64,000 nucleotides of DNA from Alphaproteobacteria bacterium. GTDB taxonomy: Bacteria; Pseudomonadota; Alphaproteobacteria; UBA9219. How positions within the stretch are numbered: position 1 is the stretch's first letter; the number at the start of each line of letters is the position of its first letter. The notes below the pieces were generated by a model. The model ran no database searches. It saw only the letters and a program-made list of their open reading frames with translations, and had not been told where the DNA came from. Positions 24,626 to 56,461 of this stretch are shown in pieces. The DNA lies in assembly GCA_009779745.1 (NCBI GenBank), contig WRDR01000004.1:3713-67712 (forward strand), given 5' to 3'. Made by a program: the position numbers and the translations under genes.

Positions 24626-24908
24626 CTTAGTACCTTTCTTAATAAATACCCTTACAGAGGGTACTAAATATTTCTTATTTCTGCAAATAAAAAGGCGAGG
24701 AATTGATTTCCCCGCCTTAACTCATTATTTTTAGAGCATATTTCGGTTAGATATTACAGTAATACCGAGCAAAAATGAGATGAATGCTAGGAGCAAGTCC
24801 GCAGGAATATCGAATATATTTCTAGGGCTTGCGACAACGCAGTCGCTCATTTTTGCGAAGAGCCGACTTGTCCTCCGTAGCCTGAAGGGCGTAGGAGGAA
24901 GGCGTGTA

Positions 24909-25523
24909 TTATCTGGAATAGAACTCGATGACCAGATTCGGCTCCATAAGCACCGGATAAGGAACATCGCTCAATGCAGGAGTTCTCACAAAAACTCCCT
25001 TCATTTCCTTATGGTCTACAGTTATGTAGTCAGGCACATCACGTTCAGCCAACTCAACAGACACAAGAACCGCAGTCATCTGTTTCGCCTTAGAACGCAG
25101 TTCTATGGTGTCTCCGTCTCTCACCTGATAGGAAGGAATATTCACTCTTTTTCCGTTCACAAGCACATGCCCGTGATTAACAACCTGTCTGGCTGCGAAC
25201 ACTGTAGGCGCAAACTTCATGCGGTACACTACGGCATCAAGCCTGCGCTCCAGCAGTTGAATTAAAATCTCGCCGGTATTGCCGCGGCGGCGAGTGGCTT
25301 CCTGATAGTAACGTCTGAATTGACGCTCACCAATGTTGCCGTAATAGCCGCGCAGCTTTTGTTTAGCCCTTAACTGCACGCCGTAGTCAGAGAGCTTGCC
25401 GCGCGCCTGACCGTGCTGACCGGGACCGTAGTCTCTTTTATTTATAGGGCTTTTAGGTCTTCCCCAGATATTGGCTCCGAGTCTTCTGTCAATCTTGTAT
25501 TTCGCATTAATTCTTTTAGTCAT
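24909..25523 (-). CDS. rpsD: 30S ribosomal protein S4
   Basis: The N-terminus [39 protein letters not shown] is the S4 signature. The protein is 204 aa. Confidence 0.95.
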
Positions 25524-33409: not shown

Positions 33410-38763
<5,354 letters not shown>

Positions 38764-38785: not shown

Positions 38786-41700
38786 TCACATTTCGCTTTT
38801 TTCTTCGGCTTCTATCATCTGCGGCTTTTTCTGGCTCATTTCTACGTTCAAGCCCAAGGAACGAAGCTCCTTCACAAGCACGTTGAAAGATTCCGGAATG
38901 CCGGCTTCGAAATTATCCTCGCCTCTTATGATAGACTCATAAACCTTAGTGCGTCCTGAAACGTCATCGGATTTCACCGTGAGTATTTCCTGAAGCGTGT
39001 AAGCAGCACCGTATGCCTCAAGTGCCCACACTTCCATTTCTCCGAAGCGCTGTCCTCCGAACTGAGCCTTACCGCCCAGAGGCTGCTGAGTAACTAAAGA
39101 ATATGGTCCGATAGATCTTGCGTGAATCTTGTCATCAACCAAATGGTGCAGTTTCAGCATGTATATGTAGCCGACCGTAACGGGTCTATCGAATTTTTCT
39201 CCTGTTCTTCCGTCAATAAGATAGGTCTGACCTGTCTTATCAAGCCCTGCCTGTTCCAGCATGACCTCAATATCGGAACCTTTGGCTCCGTCAAATACCG
39301 GAGTTGCAAAAGGAATACCGGTCCTCAAATTAGCTGCAAGTTCCAATACCTGAACATCATTAAGCTTAGAAACGTCCTTGTTGTACATCTCGGCTCCGTA
39401 CACTTCTTTGAGTTTGCTTTTTACGTCATTCAAAGATATTAAAGCCTTTTCATTGCTCGCTTTCTGTCTTACCTGCTGTTCACAGTACCCGTCATAAACA
39501 GCAGCAACCTGCTTTCCGAGTCCGGCAGAAGCCCAGCCGAGATGAGTCTCTAAAATCTGACCTATGTTCATACGGGAAGGCACGCCCAAAGGATTAAGTA
39601 TAATATCCATAGGAGTTCCGTCTTCCATATAAGGCATATCTTCTATCGGAAGAATTCTGGAAACAACACCCTTGTTTCCGTGACGGCCTGCCATTTTGTC
39701 TCCGGGCTGCAGCTTGCGCTTCACAGCCACAAAAACCTTGACCATTTTCATCACTCCCGGAGGCAGCTCATCGCCGCGCTGTAATTTGGAAACCTTATCC
39801 TCAAATCTCTTTTTGAGAGCGTTAATCTGCTCGTCAAAAACAGCGGACAGCTTCTCAACCTGCTCCATAGTCTTGGCGTTCTTTACAGTAATCTGTCTCC
39901 ACAGAGAAGGAGCAAAAGAAGACAACGTCTCTTCGGTAATAGTGCTGTCCACAGGGAATTCCTTAGGACCTTTGTCCGCCTTCTTGCCTAAAATCAGCTC
40001 TTTCAAGTGGGCATAAAAACCGCGCTCTATGATATGACGCTCGTCATCTCTATCCTTTGCAAGACGCTCTATTTCCTGACGCTCAATAGCTATAGCGCGC
40101 TGGTCTTTTTCTACGCCTCTGCGGGAAAATACTCTCACCTCAACAATAGTTCCGTTCACTCCCGGAGGCAGCCTCAAACTGGTATCGCGCACATCGGCAG
40201 CCTTTTCTCCGAAAATAGCTCGGAGCAGCTTCTCTTCCGGAGTCATCGGACTTTCACCCTTGGGAGTAACTTTACCTACAAGAATATCTCCCGGATTGAC
40301 TTCCGCACCAATGTATACAATACCGGTTTCGTCTAAATTACGGAGAGCTTCCTCACCTACGTTGGGAATGTCTCTGGTGATTTCTTCCTGACCCAGTTTA
40401 GTATCGCGCGCCATCACCTCAAATTCCTCAATGTGAATAGAGGTGAACACATCGTCTTTCACAATACGCTCGGATATAAGTATAGAATCCTCATAGTTGT
40501 ACCCGTTCCAAGGCATGAATGCGCAAAGCACGTTGCGCCCCAGTGCCAATTCTCCGAGTTCGGTAGCAGGACCGTCAGCAATAATATCGTCTTTGCTAAT
40601 CCTGTCGCCAACTTTGACTATAGGCTTCTGAGTTATACAAGTGCTCTGATTTGAACGCTGGAATTTCAGAAGATTGTAAATGTCAACGGAAGGAGCGGAA
40701 GCATCTTGTACCTGATCGGCACGAATGACTATGCGGGTGGCATCAACCTGATCAACAACACCGGAACGCTTGGCTACAATAGTGACTCCGGAATCTCTTG
40801 CAACAACAGACTCCATGCCCGTGCCTACAAGAGGAGCATCGTTATGCAGCAAAGGCACAGCCTGACGCTGCATGTTGGAGCCCATCAAAGCTCTGTTGGC
40901 GTCATCGTTCTCTAAGAAAGGAACAAGAGCCGCCGCAACGGATACTATCTGTTTAGGAGAAACATCTATCAAATCCACATTCTCAACAGGCACAACCATA
41001 ATATCGCCGTCCGTACGGACTATGACGGTCTCGTCAACAATCTTGTTGTTCTTGTCCAGCTCAACATTAGCCTGAGCAATATTGTGCTTGCCCTCTTCCA
41101 TAGCGGACAAATACACTATTTCATCAGTAACCTTGCCGTTCTTGACCTTGCGGTACGGACTCTCGATAAAGCCGTACTGATTGACTCTGGCGTAGGTTGC
41201 CAAAGAGCTGATAAGACCGATGTTCGGACCTTCGGGAGTTTCAATAGGACATATGCGCCCATAGTGTGTCGGGTGCACGTCACGGACTTCAAAGCCTGCG
41301 CGTTCTCTGGTAAGACCGCCGGGTCCTAATGCAGAGACTCTGCGCTTATGAGTAATCTCGGACAAAGGATTAGTCTGATCCATAAACTGAGAAAGCTGAG
41401 ACGAACCAAAGAATTCTCTCACCGCAGCAGCCGCAGGTTTCGCATTTATTAAATCATGCGGCATCATAGTGTCAATCTCAATAGAACTCATGCGTTCACG
41501 TATGGCGCGTTCCATACGCACAAGACCTATGCGATACTGATTCTCCATAAGCTCGCCCACAGAGCGTACGCGCCTGCTGCCCAAGTGGTCAATATCGTCC
41601 ACCTCGCCGTGCCCGTCTTTAAGCCCGCACATAATCTTGAGAATTTTGATAATATCCTCTTTCCTTAGAGTCCTTATCTGATCATCGGTATCAAACCCAA

Positions 41701-44548: not shown

Positions 44549-44594
44549 TCAGTCGCTTCGCGACTGCCACCCCTTCGCCAGCGAAGGGGAATAT
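44549..44594. repeat. Compound hairpin element (cagtcgcttcgcgactg + palindrome ccccttcgccagcgaagggg, with ATTCCCC…GGGGAAT ends) between the convergent 43537 gene and uvrD
   Basis: This is a near-perfect palindrome. A second copy, tattccccttcgccagcgaaggggaata, lies at 55658-55685. Confidence 0.7.
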
Positions 44595-46567
44595 GCACTC
44601 ACTCCTAAACTCCTCACTTCTTGATTGTACTCATCTCCATTTCCAATTTTCCATTTTACATTTTCCATTTTCTCAATGTGCTCCTCCGGCAGTTCGTCTA
44701 TAAACCTAGACGGAACAGGTCTTATCCAGTGCCCATACAAAAATCTGTTTGCTGCGCATGATATGTATGCCTTCTTTTTTGCTCTGGTTATTCCCACATA
44801 TGCAAGCCTTCTTTCTTCTTCCAGCCCTGCTATTCCGTGCTCATCTATGGCTCTTTTGCTGGGAAACAAATCTTCTTCCCACCCGGGCAGAAACACTATT
44901 TCAAATTCCAGCCCCTTGGCTCCGTGCAGCGTCATGATGCTGACCTGATCTCCGAACGTGTTTTCAGCCGCCTCCATAACAAGGCTCACATGCTCAAGAA
45001 ACGCATTTATGTTTTCGAACTCCGATATAGCATGTATAAGCTCTTTCAGGTTTTCTATCCTGGATTCGGACTCCGGCGACTTATCCGCAACAAGAGCCGC
45101 CATATATCCGGACTCATCAAGCACCATTTCTGCCACTTCCGAATGAGGCAGCGAAGAAAGAAGCCCCCTCCACCTCTGAAAGCCTTTCACAAAGTCTGAT
45201 AAAGAGTGTTTTAATTTCGGCTTAAGAGTATCGGTTTCAATCAACTGTCCTGCCGCAGCCATCAAAGAAATATTATACTCTCTCGCAGTACTTTGTATAA
45301 TCTTCAATGACGCTTCGCCTATTCCTCTTTTGGGCGTATTGATTATTCTCTCAAATCCCAAATCATTATCGGAAGACACTAATAACCGCAGATACGCTAT
45401 AGCGTCCCGTATCTCTGCCCTCTCGTAAAATCTGGCTCCTACCAGCACTCTGTACGGCAGTCCGATTTGAATAAAACGCTCTTCAATAACTCTGGTCTGA
45501 AACCCTGCCCTGACCATAACCGCTATTTCGTTAAGCCTAGTTCCTCTGTTATTCAAAAGCTCTGTCTCATCGGATATGTATCTGGTTTCCTCTCTGTCAT
45601 CAAAAAAACTCTGCACAGAAACTTTTTCGCCGTCCTCTGCCGCTGTCCACAGAGTCTTTCCCAGCCGCATATTGTTATTAGAAATCAAACCGGACGCCGC
45701 ACCCAGTATATGTCCTCCGGATCTATAATTCTGTTCAAGCCTTATGACTTTTGCATTAGGGAAATCCTCTTCAAACCTAAGAATATTTCCAACTTCTGCG
45801 CCCCTCCACCCGTATATAGACTGATCCTCATCTCCCACACAGCAAATGTTCTTATGCGATTGCGCCAAAAGCCTCAGCCATAAATACTGTACGGTATTCG
45901 TATCCTGATACTCGTCTACCATAATGTACTTAAACCTGCGCTGCACAGAAGCCAGAATATCCGGATTCTCTCTAAGCACAGTCAAATGATGCAAAAGCAA
46001 ATCTCCGAAATCGCACGCATTTAAAGTCTTCAGCCTTTCCTGATACGTGTCATACACCGCTCCCATTTTGCCGTCTGCAAACGAACCCTTTTCATTCATA
46101 ACGTCCTTAGGCAGCCTAAACTTATCCTTCCACCTGTTGATTATCGCGGCTGCAATCTTCGGCTGATATTTTTTCTCGTCTATGTCCAACGCCAAGAATA
46201 TCTGTTTAACCAGCCGTATCTGGTCGTCCTCGTTCAGAATAGTAAAATTATCTCTCAAGCCCACAAGCCCTGCATGAGGTCTGAGCAGCCTCAACGCCAA
46301 AGAGTGAAACGTACCGATAAACCAGCCGTCTACAGACATAGACAGGAGCTCGGAAACTCTGTTCTTTATCTCGTTCGCAGATTTGTTGGTAAATGTGACT
46401 CCCAGTATCTGAGACGGGAAAACATTTTCGGTTTTCAGCAGATGCACGAACCTAACAGTAAGAACTTTAGTCTTTCCTGTCCCTGCTCCGGCCAAAACAA
46501 GCACCGGACCTTCCGTGGCTTTAACTGCCTCTTGCTGAGCAGGATTTAGGGAGTCTAGGTATTTCAT
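44549..46567 (-). CDS. uvrD: UvrD/Rep-family ATP-dependent DNA helicase
   Basis: The Walker A motif (VLAGAGTGKTKVLTVR), DEYQDTN and helicase motifs III-VI are present. The protein is 672 aa. The C-terminal codons (…KWKIGNGDEY…) are encoded by the GGAAAAT repeat array, so the true stop may be assigned with less certainty. Confidence 0.9.
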   Translation of the reverse strand: MKYLDSLNPAQQEAVKATEGPVLVLAGAGTGKTKVLTVRFVHLLKTENVFPSQILGVTFTNKSANEIKNRVSELLSMSVDGWFIGTFHSLALRLLRPHAGLVGLRDNFTILNEDDQIRLVKQIFLALDIDEKKYQPKIAAAIINRWKDKFRLPKDVMNEKGSFADGKMGAVYDTYQERLKTLNACDFGDLLLHHLTVLRENPDILASVQRRFKYIMVDEYQDTNTVQYLWLRLLAQSHKNICCVGDEDQSIYGWRGAEVGNILRFEEDFPNAKVIRLEQNYRSGGHILGAASGLISNNNMRLGKTLWTAAEDGEKVSVQSFFDDREETRYISDETELLNNRGTRLNEIAVMVRAGFQTRVIEERFIQIGLPYRVLVGARFYERAEIRDAIAYLRLLVSSDNDLGFERIINTPKRGIGEASLKIIQSTAREYNISLMAAAGQLIETDTLKPKLKHSLSDFVKGFQRWRGLLSSLPHSEVAEMVLDESGYMAALVADKSPESESRIENLKELIHAISEFENINAFLEHVSLVMEAAENTFGDQVSIMTLHGAKGLEFEIVFLPGWEEDLFPSKRAIDEHGIAGLEEERRLAYVGITRAKKKAYISCAANRFLYGHWIRPVPSRFIDELPEEHIEKMENVKWKIGNGDEYNQEVRSLGVSAYSPSLAKGWQSRSD
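44636..44672 (-). repeat. Heptamer array (inverted orientation) within / after the uvrD 3' end
   Basis: The array reads ctccatttccaattttccattttacattttccattttc. Confidence 0.8.
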
Positions 46568-48149: not shown

Positions 48150-48392
48150 ATTTACCGAAAATCTGGTTTATAGCTATCAACGTGGCAGACTTGTATAGTA
48201 CTGACGACTGCCATGAGGACTGAAACCCTCACCTCAGTTACTCCGTATGGTAGCGGAGCCGTAAAATACCCTCCAACTTCGGTTGGAGGGTCGCAAAATA
48301 AGGCGGCTCGTCCGCCGAATATGCACACTATCCTGAGGATAGGTTTCAGCCTCCAACCGCTTATCGTCAGGGCGGAATCACTCGGAGGAAGC
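48150..48392 (+). other. Highly structured ~240-nt leader / candidate RNA element upstream of the XRE pseudogene
   Basis: A perfect 9-bp hairpin with a UUCG tetraloop (ccctccaac-ttcg-gttggaggg) and the hairpin ggcgg-ctcgt-ccgcc are present. A long-range stem forms between gaggactgaaaccctcacctcag and cctgaggataggtttcagcctc. The element ends in the SD GGAGG 6 nt before the ATG at 48393. Confidence 0.35.
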
Positions 48393-48715
48393 ATGGACAA
48401 AAAACTGGAAGAACGAAAGCTTAATATTACATTTGGCAAAGCCATGAAAGTTGCCAGACTTGCAAAAGGCTTGTCTCAAGAAGATGTAGCGGAAAAACGC
48501 ATATCAGGGATATCCTTAAAGGAGAAACAGATAACGATAAAATCGTTGATATCATTTACGATGTAATATGTGCTGTTGACGGCTTGGTGCCAGCGTTTAT
48601 TATTAATCCTTATTCCGGTTGCTTTATCCTATATTCAGGACCGGATCAAAAGTTCTCGGAAGCAGAAATGTTGAAGGATTTTATTGGTACAAAAGTATAC
48701 AACCCTAAATTATAG
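48393..48715 (+). pseudogene. XRE-family HTH regulator, frameshifted
   Basis: The protein reads MDKKLEERKLNITFGKAMKVARLAKGLSQEDVAEK, then a +1 shift at the A5 run (48493-48497) leads into HIRDILKGETDNDKIVDIIYDVICAV…KL*. Restoring one A gives a contiguous HTH (…GLSQEDVAEKTHIRDILKGE…). Confidence 0.55.
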
Positions 48716-52603: not shown

Positions 52604-55174
52604 ATGTACATAGGAATCGACTTAGGCACCTCAAACAGCTCTATAGCAGGCATTATTGACGGTAAACCCAGAGTTTTCCGCCCGGCAGACGGAGGCGAAG
52701 TTCTGCCCTCTATGATATATTTCGATAAAAGAAACCACAGATTGTTCGGACGCAGAGCATATGACAAAGCGTTAATATCTCCTGAAAATGTGATTTCCGG
52801 GTTTAAAAGGCTTATGGGTTCGGCAACTAAACTGGAAGTCAAATCGCTGAAACAGGAACTGTCGCCCGAAGAATGTGCCGCAGAAATCATAAGACAGCTT
52901 CTGGCTCAAGCCCAAACTGAAACAGGCAATGAGAAAATAGACGGAGCAGTCATTACTATTCCGGCATCTTTCAATCAGACGCAATCTCAGGCAACATTAA
53001 AAGCAGCGCAAATGGCCGGGCTCGAAAGAGTGGACCTTTTGCAGGAACCAATAGCAGCCGCTATAGCCTCTATGCAGGGCGCAAAGAGATCCGGAAAGTT
53101 TATAATATACGACCTCGGCGGAGGAACTTTCGACATAGCTCTGGCACAAGCAATGAACGGAGACGTGACTATACTGGCGCATCAAGGCATCAACATGCTG
53201 GGCGGGCGTGATTTTGACAGAATGATAGTGAAGAATATCGTAAGACCTTGGCTTGAGAAAATGTTCTCATTGCCTAAGGGTTTTGCTGCGAAAAAAGAGT
53301 ATGTAAAAGTGCTCAGAATAGCGCAGCTCGCAGCGGAAAAAGCAAAGATAGATTTATCTTCAATGGACAGCACCAGCATCATAGCCTCTGATGAAGAAAT
53401 AGGAGTGCAGGACCAGAACGGCTTGGAAATGTATCTGGACATACCGCTTTCTAAGGAACAGTTTAACGAGATAATCCGCCCTTACGTACTGAAGACCATA
53501 GATGTTATACGCAATATGTGCGAAGAAGCGGAGGTAAAGACTACGGACATAGACCGCATAGTCTTCATAGGAGGCTCCAGCAAAATACCTCTGATACGGG
53601 ATATAGTCGCCGCAGAACTGGATATTGCCGCAGATATGAAAACAGATCCCATGACTACTGTCGCAATAGGAGCTGCTTATTACTGCGAGAGCAGAGAGTG
53701 GTCTGTTGATAATAAAAGCTCTTCCGGTGCCGCTAAGAAAGCAACAGTATCGCAAGATGCGAAAGATAAGAAGTTTGAAATATCATATGCGTTCACTGCA
53801 AGAACTCCTAATGATAAATCTGAAATAACAGTGATATTGTCTAAGGAAAAGCCCGCAGATTTTAAGATAAAAATAAAGAATCAAGAGTGGGATTCCGGAA
53901 GCCTGCCTCTTATGGACGAACTCACAATACAGATTCCTCTGAATAATATAGGCGATAATGTTTTTGAAGCTCTAATTTTTGACAAGAACGGAAATGAACA
54001 GTCCGAGTATACTCAGAACATAACTATCAAAAGGCTTATAGCTACTGCCTCACAGATTCCCGCAGGGCATACCATAGCGATAAAAGTACGCAATCCGGAA
54101 ATTCAAACTGAAAATAAGCTGGTGAATATAATTACTAAGGGCGAGCTGCTCCCTACGCAAGGCGAGTGTTTTTTCGAGAGCACTAGGACTCTTAATCCGG
54201 GCAGGACCGGAAGCATAAGTTTCGAGCTGTTTCAGGTAGAGTATCAGGAAAACATAAATCTCAACTTGTGCATAGGAGCGTTTAGAATAGAAGCCTCCGA
54301 CTTGCCACCTAATACAAAAATAGAAAAAGGAACTCCGCTGATTTTTACGTGGGACATGAGCGAGAGCGGGATTCTGGAAGCGACAGTAACAATAAAAGCA
54401 TCGGACAGTAAAATAATAGAGCTGAAAACTCCTAAATTTTATGCGCCTCAGGCAGGACAGGTTTCTTTTGCAGGAGAAAGCGGCGTTACCTTTTCCAGAG
54501 AATTGATGAAGCGCGCATCTGAAGATTTAGGCGACCTCATAGCGGCAACAGGTCCTGATGCAGGAGCGGAAGTGAACATTTTAAAGATAAAACTGCAGGA
54601 ACAGGAAGAGCTGATTAATGACAATCCCAGTGATCCGGAAATCATATGCAAGATATGTGAAGAGATACGCTTCATACGTCAGGATATAGCAAAAATCGGC
54701 AAGATGTATTTCAAGGCTATGATGATACGAAGGCTTGGAAAACTGGAGGCGGTATTCAACAGAGTCGCAGGAGAGTTTGCCAGTGAAAAAGAGAAACAGT
54801 CTTTTAATACTTACAAAGATAAAATACACGATATACTCGATGAAATACATATAAAAGCAGATATTGACGGCAATTCGGCTATGGTATTAAAAGTGAAGAA
54901 GTATAAGGCGAAGATGAAGAGCCTGTTCTTCTCGATAGCATGGCGCAACGATGAATACATCAAGACTTGGTTTGAAAAGCTGGTTGAAGAAAAGTATATG
55001 TTTACGGATAAAACAGCTTATGAAGAGCTTCTCCGTCTTGGAAATGAGAGCATAGAAAAAGGCAATTTTGATAATCTGAGAGACATAGTGAAAAAATTGC
55101 TGGACGAGAGGATTTCTCTGAACGTGAGCGAAACCGCCGATGAGCTTGCGAATATAATCGCGAAGGCGGAGTAA
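52604..55174 (+). CDS. Atypical Hsp70-family protein: a canonical N-terminal actin-like ATPase domain fused to a ~480-aa non-canonical C-terminal region
   Basis: The Hsp70 NBD motifs are present: IGIDLGTSNS, IIYDLGGGTFDIAL and VFIGGSSKIPLIRD. No recognisable DnaK substrate-binding or lid sequence follows residue ~375. Instead there is a β-rich segment followed by a K/E-rich helical C-terminus. The total length is 856 aa, against ~640 for DnaK. Confidence 0.75.
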   Translation: MYIGIDLGTSNSSIAGIIDGKPRVFRPADGGEVLPSMIYFDKRNHRLFGRRAYDKALISPENVISGFKRLMGSATKLEVKSLKQELSPEECAAEIIRQLLAQAQTETGNEKIDGAVITIPASFNQTQSQATLKAAQMAGLERVDLLQEPIAAAIASMQGAKRSGKFIIYDLGGGTFDIALAQAMNGDVTILAHQGINMLGGRDFDRMIVKNIVRPWLEKMFSLPKGFAAKKEYVKVLRIAQLAAEKAKIDLSSMDSTSIIASDEEIGVQDQNGLEMYLDIPLSKEQFNEIIRPYVLKTIDVIRNMCEEAEVKTTDIDRIVFIGGSSKIPLIRDIVAAELDIAADMKTDPMTTVAIGAAYYCESREWSVDNKSSSGAAKKATVSQDAKDKKFEISYAFTARTPNDKSEITVILSKEKPADFKIKIKNQEWDSGSLPLMDELTIQIPLNNIGDNVFEALIFDKNGNEQSEYTQNITIKRLIATASQIPAGHTIAIKVRNPEIQTENKLVNIITKGELLPTQGECFFESTRTLNPGRTGSISFELFQVEYQENINLNLCIGAFRIEASDLPPNTKIEKGTPLIFTWDMSESGILEATVTIKASDSKIIELKTPKFYAPQAGQVSFAGESGVTFSRELMKRASEDLGDLIAATGPDAGAEVNILKIKLQEQEELINDNPSDPEIICKICEEIRFIRQDIAKIGKMYFKAMMIRRLGKLEAVFNRVAGEFASEKEKQSFNTYKDKIHDILDEIHIKADIDGNSAMVLKVKKYKAKMKSLFFSIAWRNDEYIKTWFEKLVEEKYMFTDKTAYEELLRLGNESIEKGNFDNLRDIVKKLLDERISLNVSETADELANIIAKAE

Positions 55175-55234
55175 TTCCACACTTCACATTAAAAAGAAAC
55201 ATTGACTTGTTGGATGTTTAATCATACCCTCCTA

Positions 55235-55501
55235 TTCGAATGCGGGGTACCCCCGTATTCTGAGTGCCTTAATTGGTGCAAGAGAGCATTAAACAGCTCA
55301 TACTAAACGCGGTACAGGAGCTACCGTTAAGTTAAGGAATACCCGCGCCTGGCGGTAGTGTCCTTTTGCCTGTGCTCCTCGGTCCTTTGTGGTCGGGGAG
55401 CCTGTGGTGTATGTTCAGAGGCTTGCCTTAAAGACCACGGGGTCATTCGTTTAGTATGATTGTTTAACTCTCCGGCCACCCTTTTAGGGTGGCTTTGTTT
55501 T
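55235..55501 (+). ncRNA. Candidate structured RNA (riboswitch-like leader or sRNA) ending in an intrinsic terminator
   Basis: A long-range 10-bp pairing forms between catactaaac (55300) and gtttagtatg (55451). Internal hairpins include cggta-caggagc-taccg and cgcc-tgg-cgg. The terminator hairpin gccaccc-tttta-gggtggc plus tttgtttt lies at 55475-55501, directly before the SD and ATG of a 35-aa peptide ORF. Confidence 0.35.
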
Positions 55502-55526
55502 ACGTGTAAACATGAAGGAGAATAAA

Positions 55527-55634
55527 ATGAAAACAGCACAATCTAAATTTCCGAGCAAAACCTTTTTAGCAACTCTTGCCCTTGTATTTTTCGTTGCTTA
55601 TGTTGTTTATTTTATTAAGTATTTGCTAAGCTAG
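55527..55634 (+). CDS. Small hydrophobic peptide (35 aa), putative single-pass membrane peptide
   Basis: A strong SD (aaggag) lies 7 nt before the ATG. The peptide reads MKTAQSKFPSKTFLATLALVFFVAYVVYFIKYLLS. It is below the ORF-track size cutoff. Confidence 0.35.
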   Translation: MKTAQSKFPSKTFLATLALVFFVAYVVYFIKYLLS

Positions 55635-55657
55635 ATTGAAAGGGTGAGCTGTCGACG

Positions 55658-55685
55658 TATTCCCCTTCGCCAGCGAAGGGGAATA
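55658..55685. repeat. Palindromic hairpin tattccccttcgccagcgaaggggaata (second copy of the element at 44570-44589)
   Basis: Over 24 nt it is near-identical to the 44.5-kb copy. It lies between convergent genes (peptide ORF + / dapB −). Confidence 0.7.
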
Positions 55686-55729
55686 TTCTCTCACAGCAAC
55701 CACCAATTCCTAATTCCATATTTCAAATT

Positions 55730-56461
55730 TCACATTACCTCTTCCAGCCCGTACAGCAGCGTTTTCTTCCCAACTATATTCTTAGCTGCCAGCCTTATGC
55801 CTGCACTGAAAGAAGACCTGTCCGAAGAATCATGCTCTATCGACAACGTTTGCCCTGTGTCTCCAAAAATCACTTTTTCTTGGGCTATTACTCCTGTTCT
55901 TCTTATCGAGTGAATCCTTACTCCTCTTACTTCTCCTCCACGGAATTCATTAATCTCGCCAAGCTCCCCGGGCACCTGCATAGCCGCCTCTGCCCTGCCC
56001 TCTGCTATCAGCTCCGCAGTCCTTACCGCAGTTCCGGACGGCGCATCCAGCTTTTTCTCATGATGAGATTCTATAATCTCTACGTAAGGCATGTACTTCG
56101 CAGCTTCCTTTGCAAACTTCATTAACAGCACCGCACCTATCGCAAAATTAGGAACGATAATTCCTCCGATTTTTTTTTCATCACATACTTTTCTTAAAGA
56201 CGCAACCTGCTCTCCGGTAAAACCGCTAGTCCCGATTACCGGCTGCGCTCCGGCATTGATAATCTTCAAAAAATTCTCATGCCCCAGCCCTGCAAATGTA
56301 AAGTCTATCACAACCTGCGGTTTATAAGCCTTTATTGCTTCTTCCAGATTATCCTCTTTATCAGTCTGCCCAACCAGCGCAAAATCAGAGTCAGAAGAAA
56401 TAGCTCCGGCAGCCAAAGTCCCCATACGCCCCTTAGCTCCATTTATCAAAACAGAAATCAT
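55730..56461 (-). CDS. dapB: 4-hydroxy-tetrahydrodipicolinate reductase
   Basis: The N-terminus MISVLINGAKGRMGTLAAGAI (NAD(P)-binding) and the C-terminal DapB domain (EIIESHHEKKLDAPSGTA) are present. The protein is 243 aa. Confidence 0.9.
   Translation of the reverse strand: MISVLINGAKGRMGTLAAGAISSDSDFALVGQTDKEDNLEEAIKAYKPQVVIDFTFAGLGHENFLKIINAGAQPVIGTSGFTGEQVASLRKVCDEKKIGGIIVPNFAIGAVLLMKFAKEAAKYMPYVEIIESHHEKKLDAPSGTAVRTAELIAEGRAEAAMQVPGELGEINEFRGGEVRGVRIHSIRRTGVIAQEKVIFGDTGQTLSIEHDSSDRSSFSAGIRLAAKNIVGKKTLLYGLEEVM

What the first reader, a model, noticed from the sequence alone, without database searches (positions are those of the whole stretch)
55200..55640. ~270-nt highly structured RNA region ending in an intrinsic terminator directly upstream of a 35-aa hydrophobic peptide ORF
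Between the Hsp70-like gene and dapB there is a GC-enriched segment with strong secondary structure. There is a perfect 10-bp long-range pairing (catactaaac…gtttagtatg) enclosing several local hairpins (cggta-caggagc-taccg; cgcc-tgg-cgg). A canonical terminator (gccaccc-tttta-gggtggc + tttgtttt, 55475-55501) ends 10 nt before a strong SD (aaggag) and an ATG. The ORF encodes MKTAQSKFPSKTFLATLALVFFVAYVVYFIKYLLS. Terminator-then-SD geometry is what a transcription-attenuating riboswitch or leader looks like. Alternatively the structured segment is an independent sRNA. I could not match it to TPP, cobalamin, ZTP, c-di-GMP, fluoride, glycine or SAM consensus motifs by eye.
Basis: seen in the sequence. 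Interest (0 to 1): 0.55.

Follow-up and report, generated by a model that had tools for sequence, protein, structure and literature searches.

The report
Mobile-element leader RNA switch, sRNA-Xcc1-like
The structured stretch is real and is a divergent member of a little-studied RNA family (relatives of sRNA-Xcc1) found on plasmids and phage-like elements. It looks built to decide, through alternative folds and a terminator, whether the gene behind it is transcribed.

Summary
Window 55237-55501 (+) folds far better than shuffles (z -5.5). It has a 25-bp long-range helix, an intrinsic terminator (55474-55501) and, 13 nt later, AAGGAG plus the ATG of a 35-aa hydrophobic ORF.

It is not an orphan. 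Positions 55391-55477 are the three-way-junction core of a family carried by at least 128 alphaproteobacterial plasmids and by phage-like contigs. This family is a divergent branch of Rfam sRNA-Xcc1. The window scores 23.9 bits, below the 53-bit threshold, but a bridging member and reciprocal hits link the two.

In 24 distinct members 96% of cells pair and 17 of 26 pairs show compensatory changes.

That helix, and a second upstream strand (A0) complementary to helix A, exclude the junction fold. In 8 AT-rich members the junction's closing helix shares 4 nt with the terminator stem. An ORF follows 35-85 nt downstream but encodes unrelated proteins.

Best reading: a default-off, terminator-based leader switch with an unknown trigger. 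A stand-alone sRNA is the main rival. The 35-aa ORF itself is not conserved.

The parts
55202..55230 (+). Possible sigma-70 promoter: TTGACT (55202-07), 17-nt spacer, TACCCT (55225-30). It would start the RNA near 55237.
   Evidence: Read from the sequence. It is below the scanner's -10 criterion. A similar TTGCAA-17-TATCCT lies upstream of the first hairpin in relative L128. Inferred, not shown.
55238..55260 (+). 5' hairpin: 10-bp stem GAAUGCGGGG/CCCCGUAUUC, loop UAC.
   Evidence: Pair probabilities 0.97-1.0.
55264..55279 (+). Second small hairpin, GUGCC/GGUGC.
   Evidence: Pair probabilities 0.91-0.98.
55282..55309 (+). 5' strand of the long-range helix P1. It contains the small alternative hairpin S2 (GAGC/GCUC, 55284-55299), followed by the strand complementary to hairpin C.
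   Evidence: P1 segments: 55282-86 with 55468-72, 55289-96 with 55460-67, and 55298-309 with 55448-59. S2 appears in folds of truncated transcripts. The equivalent upstream strand is complementary to hairpin C plus linker in all 18 members tested.
55311..55376 (+). Variable hairpin S3. The robust inner stem is 55320-29 with 55350-59.
   Evidence: Probability 0.8-0.9 for the inner stem and about 0.3 for the outer stem. A variable hairpin sits at the same place in relatives.
55375..55384 (+). Strand A0 (CUCCUCGGUC), complementary to the 5' strand of helix A. The local hairpin A0:A excludes the junction fold.
   Evidence: -13.9 kcal/mol in the window. An equivalent hairpin is present in all 23 family members examined, but not in the E. 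coli RF02221 member L140. A full-length fold with A0:A enforced is only 3 kcal/mol above the MFE.
55391..55477 (+). Three-way-junction core, sRNA-Xcc1-like.
- Helix A: 55391-400 with 55468-477.
- Helix B: 55401-08 with 55434-41.
- Helix B2: 55418-21 with 55426-29.
- Hairpin C: 55442-46 with 55456-60.
- Conserved unpaired GUAUG and UUAAAG; linker 55461-67.
   Evidence: Folds this way on its own at -34.0 kcal/mol. Scores 81.8 bits to model R1, of which it is a training member. RF02221 gives 23.9 bits over 55391-55485. Covariation.
55448..55472 (+). 3' strand of P1. It overlaps the loop and 3' stem of hairpin C, the linker and the first 5 nt of helix A's 3' strand, so P1 and the junction fold are mutually exclusive here.
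55474..55501 (+). Intrinsic terminator: GGCCACCCU/AGGGUGGCU plus UUGUUUU. Its first 4 nt (GGCC, 55474-77) are also the last 4 nt of helix A.
   Evidence: Full stem -15.4 kcal/mol against -4.5 without the 4 shared pairs. The same overlap occurs in 7 other AT-rich members.
55515..55634 (+). SD AAGGAG (55515-20) and a 35-aa ORF (ATG 55527, stop at 55632-34) with one hydrophobic helix. There is no room for a promoter of its own after the terminator.
   Evidence: No Pfam, NCBIfam or PADLOC family. The exact 40-aa form is found only in contigs of the same strain.
55658..55685 (.). Perfect 13-bp hairpin between the small ORF and the convergent dapB. Probably a two-way terminator that would end a read-through transcript.
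   Evidence: I2. A 94%-identical copy lies at 44570-44602.

Best explanation
Positions 55237-55501 most likely encode one RNA of about 265 nt. It belongs to a family of leader RNAs carried by mobile elements (alphaproteobacterial plasmids, and phage- or ICE-like contigs). The core of the family is a divergent form of sRNA-Xcc1.

The RNA can adopt two mutually exclusive folds.
- Fold 1, the calculated ground state: an upstream strand pairs with hairpin C, the linker and the start of A' (helix P1). Strand A0 pairs with the 5' strand of helix A. The 3' strand A' is left free and completes a 9-bp intrinsic terminator. Transcription stops, and the 35-aa membrane peptide behind it is not made.
- Fold 2: the conserved three-way junction (helices A, B and C) forms. 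Helix A takes 4 nt from the terminator stem, which weakens it from -15 to about -5 kcal/mol, and RNA polymerase reads through into the ORF.

Shown here: the family, the junction, P1 and the A0 complementarity, the overlap with the terminator, and the constant presence of a downstream ORF.

Inferred: that the folds act as a switch, that the default state is 'off', and that some factor stabilises the junction. That factor could be a small molecule, a protein or an RNA; I cannot name it.
For: Family:
- blastn finds the core in 128 plasmid records, nearly all alphaproteobacterial and 99 of them conjugative, always with no annotated feature under the match.
- It is also found in IMG/VR contigs.

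Junction:
- 24 distinct sequences, 96.1% of cells paired, 17 of 26 pairs with changes on both sides. 0 of 500 shuffles reach this, and slid controls give at most 50%.
- The sense strand scores 72-102 bits for most members, against at most 22 bits antisense.

Link to sRNA-Xcc1:
- Window 23.9 bits, with the same architecture.
- L125 scores 37.1 bits to RF02221 and 39.8 bits to R1 at the same place.
- An authentic RF02221 member (68.2 bits) is found by R1 at 20.3 bits, E 0.0017.

P1:
- Each member has its own upstream strand complementary to its own hairpin C plus linker, with 18 different sequences.
- Cognate duplexes average -21.9 kcal/mol against -15.7 for non-cognate ones, with 0 of 10,000 permutations as good.

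A0:A hairpin: present in all 23 family members examined.

Terminator:
- It shares GACC/GGCC with helix A in 8 distinct AT-rich members.
- The SD follows at once in the window, L128 and the second copy in L129.

Downstream ORF: it starts 35-85 nt after the core in nearly all members, and 57-68 nt after it in the GC-rich ones.

Energetics in the window: MFE -119.5 kcal/mol with P1. The junction becomes the best fold (-81.3) only when the P1 5' strand, A0 and the terminator's 3' half are all unavailable.
Against: - No transcript data exist for this organism, so the 5' end, termination and read-through are all unobserved.
- The junction fold is about 38 kcal/mol less stable than the ground state in the window. 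A switch would have to be kinetic or need a very strong effector. This copy may be locked off or decaying.
- The downstream genes are unrelated: XRE regulators, DUF2285, a GGDEF protein, an OMP, VasI-like and SLOG proteins, BRO-N and small peptides. That is unlike classical metabolite riboswitches.
- sRNA-Xcc1 accumulates as a discrete 88-nt RNA in Xanthomonas and was published as trans-acting (PMC2996969; the title of Chen et al. 2011 as cited in PMC12189769).
- Helix A is nearly invariant in my set, partly because my search patterns fixed it, so the A0-versus-A' competition rests on complementarity rather than covariation.
- The window's context is housekeeping genes, not an evident mobile element.
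Confidence: 0.5

Rival explanations
1. A stand-alone trans-acting sRNA. The RNA (265 nt, or a processed core of about 90-110 nt) is the product, the terminator is simply its 3' end, and the small ORF is expressed only by leakage or not at all.
For: - sRNA-Xcc1 is a discrete 88-nt RNA by Northern and RACE in Xanthomonas (PMC2996969). Homologues are abundant transcripts in Xylella (PMC12189769).
- The terminator is strong.
- The 25-bp P1 could be an RNase III site that releases the core (inference).
Against: - In nearly all members an ORF with an SD starts 35-85 nt after the core, at an almost fixed 57-68 nt in the GC-rich ones.
- In the window, L128 and the second copy in L129 there is no space for a promoter between the terminator and the SD.
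- GC-rich members have no U-tract terminator after the core.
- Conserved alternative pairings (A0, P1) are unnecessary for a simple sRNA.
Confidence: 0.27
2. A relic. The element arrived with a mobile-element fragment at a rearrangement junction and no longer functions. The extra-long P1 locks it shut, and the 35-aa ORF is a leftover or a chance ORF.
For: - Synteny breaks exactly here. The closest DapB relative (89% aa, L087) has other genes next to dapB and no RNA. Relatives of the Hsp70-like gene have other neighbours.
- The peptide has no homologue.
- A second, more degenerate copy lies at 48182-48360, in front of a 57-aa ORF with only a partial HTH match.
Against: - All invariant core positions and all helices are intact in the window copy (81.8 bits).
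- The terminator, the 4-nt overlap, A0 and a strong SD are all preserved.
- The sequence is identical in five contigs from different samples, although this says little because they are one strain.
Confidence: 0.12
3. A type I toxin-antitoxin-like module, in which the hydrophobic 35-aa peptide is a membrane toxin and the structured RNA restrains it.
For: - The peptide resembles type I toxins in size and hydrophobicity (read from the sequence).
- In Xanthomonas integron cassettes sRNA-Xcc1 lies directly upstream of the toxin gene symE (bioRxiv 10.1101/2025.06.18.660453).
Against: - No antisense or extended complementarity exists between the RNA and the ORF region. The best match is 13 nt at 77%.
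- Most family members precede non-toxin genes.
- No PADLOC, Pfam or NCBIfam match.
Confidence: 0.06
4. A DNA-level element: a MITE or palindromic repeat, an integron attC-like site, or a single-strand promoter of conjugative DNA.
For: - Inverted repeats of 25-28 nt flank 138 nt.
- The family is enriched on conjugative plasmids.
Against: - There is no other copy of the repeat in 64 kb, and no target-site duplication.
- The pairings include many G-U pairs; G14-U is the commonest form of that helix A pair.
- The model scores 72-102 bits on the sense strand for most members, against at most 22 bits antisense, so the structure belongs to the transcribed strand.
- Homologues are seen as RNA (PMC2996969).
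Confidence: 0.03

Closest known systems
sRNA-Xcc1 (Rfam RF02221), an 88-nt sRNA of Xanthomonas campestris found on integron cassettes, transposons, plasmids and prophages
   Same: - Same three-way junction: a G-rich outer helix followed by two hairpins.
- Shared sequence blocks: GGUCGGG at the 5' end, and CGGUUU.GA.C.CCCG.CCACCC at the 3' end.
- Location directly upstream of a gene on mobile DNA: symE, ORF6N and BRO-N genes.
- Reciprocal sub-threshold hits and a bridging member.
   Different: - The window scores 23.9 bits against a 53-bit threshold, and the plasmid member tested (L091) was not found at E<10.
- The alphaproteobacterial branch has conserved GUAUG and CUAAAG motifs.
- It also has about 150 nt of conserved upstream structure: the S1/S2 hairpins, the P1 strand and A0. 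RF02221 does not model these, and I could not show them for RF02221 members. There is one anecdotal 6-nt match in L140.
- No function is established for either.
Transcription-terminating ON riboswitches (for example the pbuE adenine riboswitch) and classical 1:2 / 2:3 / 3:4 attenuators (trp leader)
   Same: - A structured junction closed by a helix whose 3' strand is also needed by an intrinsic terminator.
- An upstream strand that competes for the other side of that helix.
- The regulated ORF follows immediately after the terminator.
   Different: - No ligand, leader peptide or tRNA partner is identified.
- The downstream genes share no pathway.
- The overlap with the terminator is only 4 nt.
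- The calculated gap between the two folds in the window is very large.
- This comparison rests on general knowledge, not on a test made here.
SymE/SymR and other type I toxin systems
   Same: A small hydrophobic ORF lies behind a structured RNA, and sRNA-Xcc1 precedes symE in Xanthomonas cassettes.
   Different: There is no antisense complementarity, the peptide is unrelated to any known toxin family, and most family members precede non-toxin genes.

Membership tests
sRNA-Xcc1 (Rfam RF02221) | Score at or above the curated gathering threshold (53 bits) | tested here: not met
   23.9 bits, E 0.1, over 55391-55485. No hit at gathering.
sRNA-Xcc1 (Rfam RF02221) | Outer helix enclosing two hairpins (three-way junction) over the full model length | tested here: met
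   Model positions 1-87 align. The core alone folds this way at -34.0 kcal/mol. Helices are supported by covariation in relatives.
sRNA-Xcc1 (Rfam RF02221) | Homology shown by intermediates or reciprocal detection | tested here: met
   L125 scores 37.1 bits to RF02221 and 39.8 bits to R1 at the same site. E. coli prophage member L140 scores 68.2 bits to RF02221 and 20.3 bits, E 0.0017, to R1.
sRNA-Xcc1 (Rfam RF02221) | Carried on mobile DNA, directly upstream of a gene | tested here: inconclusive
   An ORF follows. The flanks are cysE, an Hsp70-like gene and dapB, with no mobile-element genes seen. The site is a synteny breakpoint.
sRNA-Xcc1 (Rfam RF02221) | Accumulates as a discrete RNA of about 88-100 nt | not testable with these tools
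   Known for Xanthomonas only (PMC2996969).
Terminator-based riboswitch / attenuator | Conserved structured sensor domain with covariation and conserved unpaired nucleotides | tested here: met
   The invariant unpaired positions lie within GUAUG, AAAG and AACUC.
Terminator-based riboswitch / attenuator | Intrinsic terminator that shares nucleotides with a sensor helix | tested here: met
   GGCC at 55474-77 belongs both to helix A and to the terminator stem. The same holds in L094, L128, L133, L117, L125, the second copy in L129, and L105.
Terminator-based riboswitch / attenuator | Mutually exclusive alternative pairings that are conserved | tested here: met
   A0:A is found in all 23 family members examined. 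P1 against hairpin C, linker and A' is shown.
Terminator-based riboswitch / attenuator | Identified effector and a functionally coherent set of regulated genes | tested here: not met
   The downstream proteins are unrelated to each other. No effector can be inferred.
Type I toxin-antitoxin | RNA with antisense or extended complementarity to the toxin mRNA | tested here: not met
   The best inverted match between the RNA and the ORF region is 13 nt at 77%.
Type I toxin-antitoxin | Small hydrophobic peptide belonging to a recognisable toxin family | tested here: not met
   Hydrophobic 35-aa ORF, but no Pfam, NCBIfam or PADLOC family. No tblastn match in the loci fetched up to that point, apart from same-strain contigs.
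Housekeeping RNAs (6S, tmRNA, RNase P, SRP) and all other Rfam 15 families | Covariance-model match | tested here: not met
   Nothing at gathering. Nothing relevant at E<10. ARAGORN finds no tmRNA.
MITE / palindromic repeat | Several copies in the genome, with terminal inverted repeats and a target duplication | tested here: not met
   No second copy in 64 kb and no duplication at the ends. The inverted repeat corresponds to an RNA helix whose sequence differs between relatives while staying complementary.

The most novel reading that the evidence does not exclude
The about 250-nt RNA, of which sRNA-Xcc1 is only the core, is a previously unrecognised class of riboswitch-like switch. It would be used by plasmids, ICEs and phages of Proteobacteria to gate the expression of whatever cargo gene is placed behind it. 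It would do so by sensing one common cellular or element-borne signal through a pseudoknotted three-way junction.
Probability: 0.3. Interest if true: 0.85.

Novelty: new variant of a known kind. Interest (0 to 1): 0.62.

Why it matters
sRNA-Xcc1 has been in Rfam since 2012 as a short sRNA gene of unknown mechanism. It is routinely annotated in prophages, integrons and genomic islands.

The window led to a large alphaproteobacterial branch in which the same core is embedded in a longer leader. That leader has two conserved, incompatible folds and, in AT-rich hosts, a terminator interlocked with the core. If the switch is real, it would be a general regulatory cassette of mobile elements sitting in front of regulators, toxins, membrane proteins and signalling enzymes.

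Its trigger could be found experimentally, because copies exist on plasmids of Agrobacterium, Rhizobium, Sinorhizobium and Paracoccus. It would also change how sRNA-Xcc1 hits are interpreted, from a trans-acting sRNA to a cis-acting leader.

For this window alone the practical result is modest: one more member, possibly a locked or decaying one, in front of an unconserved 35-aa ORF.

Tried and rejected
1. Known RNA families. Rfam at gathering found only two tRNAs in the window. ARAGORN found no tmRNA. I rejected 6S, tmRNA, RNase P, SRP and the known riboswitches.

2. Synteny-based comparison failed.
- The Hsp70-like protein found no close relative in genome contigs with a single-protein query.
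- With an alignment, 80 loci at 34-63% identity were fetched. None has the RNA by blastn or nhmmer or by the covariance model, and none has dapB or cysE nearby.
- DapB relatives at 89%, 81% and 63% identity (L087-L089) have other neighbours or end at the gene.
- The metagenome scan gave one contig, which ends inside the Hsp70-like gene.

3. A protein search with the C-terminal 199 aa returned nothing, not even the protein itself.

4. Repeat or MITE: no other copy in the window.

5. Defence system: no PADLOC match for the Hsp70-like protein, the peptide or the neighbouring 94-aa ORF.

6. Integron attC: the RYYYAAC/GTTRRRY boxes do not fit the ends of the inverted repeat (read from the sequence).

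7. Retron: the architecture is superficially similar, but no reverse transcriptase is nearby.

8. A viral-contig scan with the RF02221 consensus pattern gave three loci that are not RF02221 members.

9. My hand-built structure evaluations (last three blocks) and the enforced-pair folds (second and fourth blocks) gave implausible energies, and I disregard them. The masked folds are used instead.

Full report
**1. The observation**

The region lies between an 856-aa protein with an Hsp70 N-terminal domain (52604-55174, +) and DapB (55730-56461, -).

- A 12-bp perfect long-range pairing, 55298-55309 with 55448-55459. Together with two further segments it forms a 25-bp helix, P1, with pair probabilities near 1.
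- An intrinsic terminator, 55474-55494 plus UUGUUUU.
- AAGGAG at 55515-20 and an ATG at 55527 that opens a 35-aa ORF with one hydrophobic helix.

The + strand folds at -122.5 kcal/mol against -92.5 +/- 5.5 for shuffles (z -5.5). The - strand gives z -3.8. G+C is 50-52% against 37-44% around it. A coarse scan shows that a few other places in the window fold about as well, so energy alone would not carry the case.

**2. First attempts to place it**

Rfam at its curated thresholds finds only two tRNAs in the window. With relaxed thresholds the only notable match was sRNA-Xcc1 (RF02221) at 23.9 bits, E 0.1, over 55391-55485.

The source is an uncultured alphaproteobacterium. Identical contigs come from several metagenomes, and a public copy of the Hsp70-like protein is named as from an Alphaproteobacteria MAG. 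From memory, these are termite-gut samples.

Comparison by synteny failed.
- Relatives of the Hsp70-like gene (34-63% identity, 80 loci) and of dapB (63-89%) carry those genes in other contexts.
- They show no similar DNA.
- The intergenic region therefore sits at a rearrangement junction.

**3. The lead**

A sensitive blastn of the region against plasmids gave 41, and then 128, records. Nearly all are alphaproteobacterial: Rhizobium, Agrobacterium, Sinorhizobium, Ketogulonicigenium, Paracoccus, Bradyrhizobium and others. Of the 128, 99 are conjugative. They match window 55375-55442 with no annotated feature under the match. Two unannotated 'Bacteriophage sp.' contigs also matched.

Reading these loci showed a shared block: GGUCGGGGAGCC...GUAUG...CUAAAG...hairpin...UUYSRAACUCYCCGRYC. 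A pattern scan of IMG/VR added more members. These include an AT-rich group (L128, L133, L117, L125 and the second copy in L129) that, with L094, is closest to the window in composition and layout.

**4. The core is a real RNA structure**

An alignment of 19 sequences gives a three-way junction: helix A (10 bp), helix B (8 bp) with an apical B2 (4 bp), and hairpin C (4-5 bp).

- In that alignment 96.2% of cells pair and 13 of 26 pairs change on both sides.
- After adding the AT-rich members there are 24 distinct sequences. Then 96.1% of cells pair and 17 of 26 pairs are compensatory, covering 78 cells. 0 of 500 shuffles reach this, and slid controls give at most 50%.
- That second alignment was fitted to the model, so it leans towards the structure. 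The first, MAFFT-only count gives the same picture.
- Helix A hardly varies, partly because my search patterns fixed it.
- The model scores 72-102 bits on the sense strand for most members and at most 22 bits on the antisense strand. G-U is the commonest form of one helix A pair. The structure therefore belongs to the transcript, not to double-stranded or template-strand DNA.
- The window sequence fits throughout (81.8 bits, as a training member). Cut out on its own, it folds into exactly this junction at -34.0 kcal/mol.

**5. Relation to sRNA-Xcc1**

The Rfam model has the same layout, an outer helix and two hairpins, and shares the blocks GGYCGGGG and ACGGUUUUGAGCCCCCGGCCACCC with the new set.

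- L125 is hit by both models at the same place: 37.1 bits to RF02221 and 39.8 bits to my model.
- A bona fide RF02221 member in an E. coli prophage (68.2 bits, upstream of a BRO-N gene) is found by my model at 20.3 bits, E 0.0017.
- I therefore regard the alphaproteobacterial set as a divergent branch of the same superfamily.
- The window fails Rfam's membership threshold, and the plasmid member I tested (L091) is not seen by RF02221 at E<10.

From the literature:
- sRNA-Xcc1 is an 88-nt RNA mapped in Xanthomonas (PMC2996969).
- It lies upstream of symE in the most widespread Xanthomonas integron cassette (bioRxiv 10.1101/2025.06.18.660453).
- It lies upstream of an ORF6N gene in APSE phages (bioRxiv 10.1101/2020.03.17.996009).
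- It occurs in a tandem array in a Xylella genomic island (PMC12189769).
- I found no mechanism in the papers held.

**6.

In every member, the segment just 3' of a small hairpin (S2) is complementary to that member's own hairpin C. The sequence differs from member to member: UACAAG/CUUGUA, UACGAG/CUCGUA, UGACUAG/CUAGUCA, CAUUUCGCA/UGCGAAAUG, UCCUUAUG/CAUAAGGA, and in the window UCAUACUAAACG/CGUUUAGUAUGA. There are 18 different pairs.

The S2 loop also changes together with the linker after hairpin C: CGAAAC with GUUUCG, GGAAAC with GUUUCC, and AGUAAC with GUUACU (read). The two complementarities together form one helix of about 17-25 bp.

Cognate duplexes average -21.9 kcal/mol and non-cognate ones -15.7 kcal/mol. 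None of 10,000 permutations does as well. This helix is P1 of the window.

In the window P1 uses 55448-55472. That span covers the loop and 3' stem of hairpin C, the linker and the first 5 nt of helix A's 3' strand. P1 and the junction therefore cannot coexist there. In some relatives (for example L128) the pairing lies inside the loop of hairpin C and might coexist with it as a pseudoknot.

**7. A second competitor and the terminator**

Immediately upstream of helix A, every member has a strand (A0) complementary to helix A's 5' strand. It is CUCCUCGGUC in the window, CUCCUUGACC on plasmids and CCCCGAC in AT-rich members. It forms a local hairpin of -9 to -21 kcal/mol in all 23 family members examined.

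In the window and seven other AT-rich members, helix A's 3' strand ends in GACC or GGCC. Those 4 nt are also the first 4 nt of an intrinsic terminator stem. In the window the stem is worth -15.4 kcal/mol with them and -4.5 without them. The layout is therefore A0 / A / A' / terminator-3', the logic of a 1:2, 2:3, 3:4 attenuator.

The calculated ground state of the 265-nt RNA has P1 and the complete terminator (-119.5 kcal/mol). A fold that adds the A0:A hairpin lies within 3 kcal/mol of it. The junction becomes the best fold (-81.3) only if the P1 5' strand, A0 and the terminator's 3' half are all unavailable. The default is therefore termination. Read-through would need the junction to be captured during transcription.

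**8. What lies downstream**

In nearly all members an ORF with an SD starts 35-85 nt after the core, and at 57-68 nt in the GC-rich ones. In the window, L128 and the second copy in L129 the SD follows the terminator directly, which leaves no room for another promoter.

The proteins are unrelated to each other:
- XRE-type regulators
- DUF2285 proteins
- a PAS-GGDEF protein
- an outer-membrane beta-barrel protein
- a VasI-like protein
- a YpsA/SLOG protein
- secreted or membrane proteins
- BRO-N
- in the window, a 35-aa peptide without homologues

What is conserved is the cassette 'leader plus any gene', not the gene.

**9. Interpretation**

Identity is well supported. The mechanism is inferred. 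I favour a cis-acting, default-off leader switch (0.5) over a plain trans-acting sRNA (0.27), a relic (0.12), a toxin-antitoxin pair (0.06) or a DNA-level element (0.03).

The main weaknesses are these:
- There are no transcript data.
- The effector is unknown.
- The downstream genes are heterogeneous.
- The calculated gap between the two folds in the window copy is very large. That copy may be locked shut.

A possible promoter (TTGACT, 17 nt, TACCCT at 55202-55230) would put the 5' hairpin at the start of the RNA. It is weak by consensus.

**10. Novelty**

The core belongs to a known, functionally uncharacterised family. I did not find the following described in Rfam 15 or in the papers I could search, though that search is limited:
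- the alphaproteobacterial branch;
- its conserved upstream half;
- the two competing pairings;
- the interlocked terminator.

I therefore rate it as a new variant of a known kind.

Noticed in passing
window 48182-48360 (+), ORF 48393-48566: A second, much more divergent copy of the same layout:
- S1 hairpin 48184-48212.
- S2 GAGG/CCUC 48215-30.
- CCUCAG (48232-37) complementary to CUGAGG (48333-38) in a hairpin-C equivalent.
- A0 CCCUCCAAC, then UUCG, then A GUUGGAGGG (48269-90).
- A' CCUCCAACC (48350-58).
- SD GGAGGA, followed by a 57-aa ORF with a partial HTH_3 match (E 0.018).

Helix A differs on both sides from the main family. Model R1 gives only 12.1 bits; fold z is -4.6.
   Followed up: partly
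L140 2330-2590 (E. coli RMDEC465 prophage): A true RF02221 member (68.2 bits).
- A consensus promoter TTGACA-17-TATATT lies about 90 nt upstream of the core.
- In between is a UACCAG that is complementary to the loop of its hairpin C (CUGGUA).
- A BRO-N gene starts 43 nt after the model R1 match.

This suggests that the Rfam model covers only the core of a longer leader in Gammaproteobacteria too.
   Followed up: partly
window 52604-55174: An 856-aa protein with an Hsp70/actin-like ATPase domain only in residues 3-362 and about 490 residues without any family. Full-length homologues (35-56% identity, about 840 aa) are widespread in Alphaproteobacteria and occur in some Gammaproteobacteria and Acidobacteriota. 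There is no PADLOC match.
   Followed up: partly
window 55175-55729 versus L087, L089, L090, L006: Gene order breaks on both sides of the RNA. The closest DapB relative (89% aa) has an unrelated 253-aa gene 8 nt after dapB. The 69%-identical relative of the Hsp70-like gene has a different upstream neighbour.
   Followed up: partly
window 55658-55685 and 44570-44602: The perfect 13-bp hairpin after the small ORF has a 94%-identical 33-nt copy downstream of another gene. It may be a recurrent terminator sequence in this genome.
   Followed up: no
window 24751-24950 (+), 40501-40700 (+), 34501-34700 (-): Other 200-nt windows with very negative folding z-scores in a coarse scan (10 shuffles each), not examined further.
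   Followed up: no
L106 7489-7590 and 10406-10509 (- strand): One IMG/VR contig carries two full copies of the leader 3 kb apart. One is in front of an outer-membrane beta-barrel-like protein and the other in front of a protein that starts with a hydrophobic, signal-peptide-like stretch.
   Followed up: no
L006 6600-6830: In a relative's genome, the 300 nt after the Hsp70-like gene are also GC-rich and full of hairpins, with no Rfam match and no similarity to the window RNA.
   Followed up: no
GC-rich members, 40-60 nt after the core (L098, L099, L102, L106): The SD of the downstream gene is often GGGGAG, identical to the inner part of helix A's 5' strand. A free A' (CUCCCC) could therefore mask it. 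This may be a translational version of the same switch (read; not tested).
   Followed up: no
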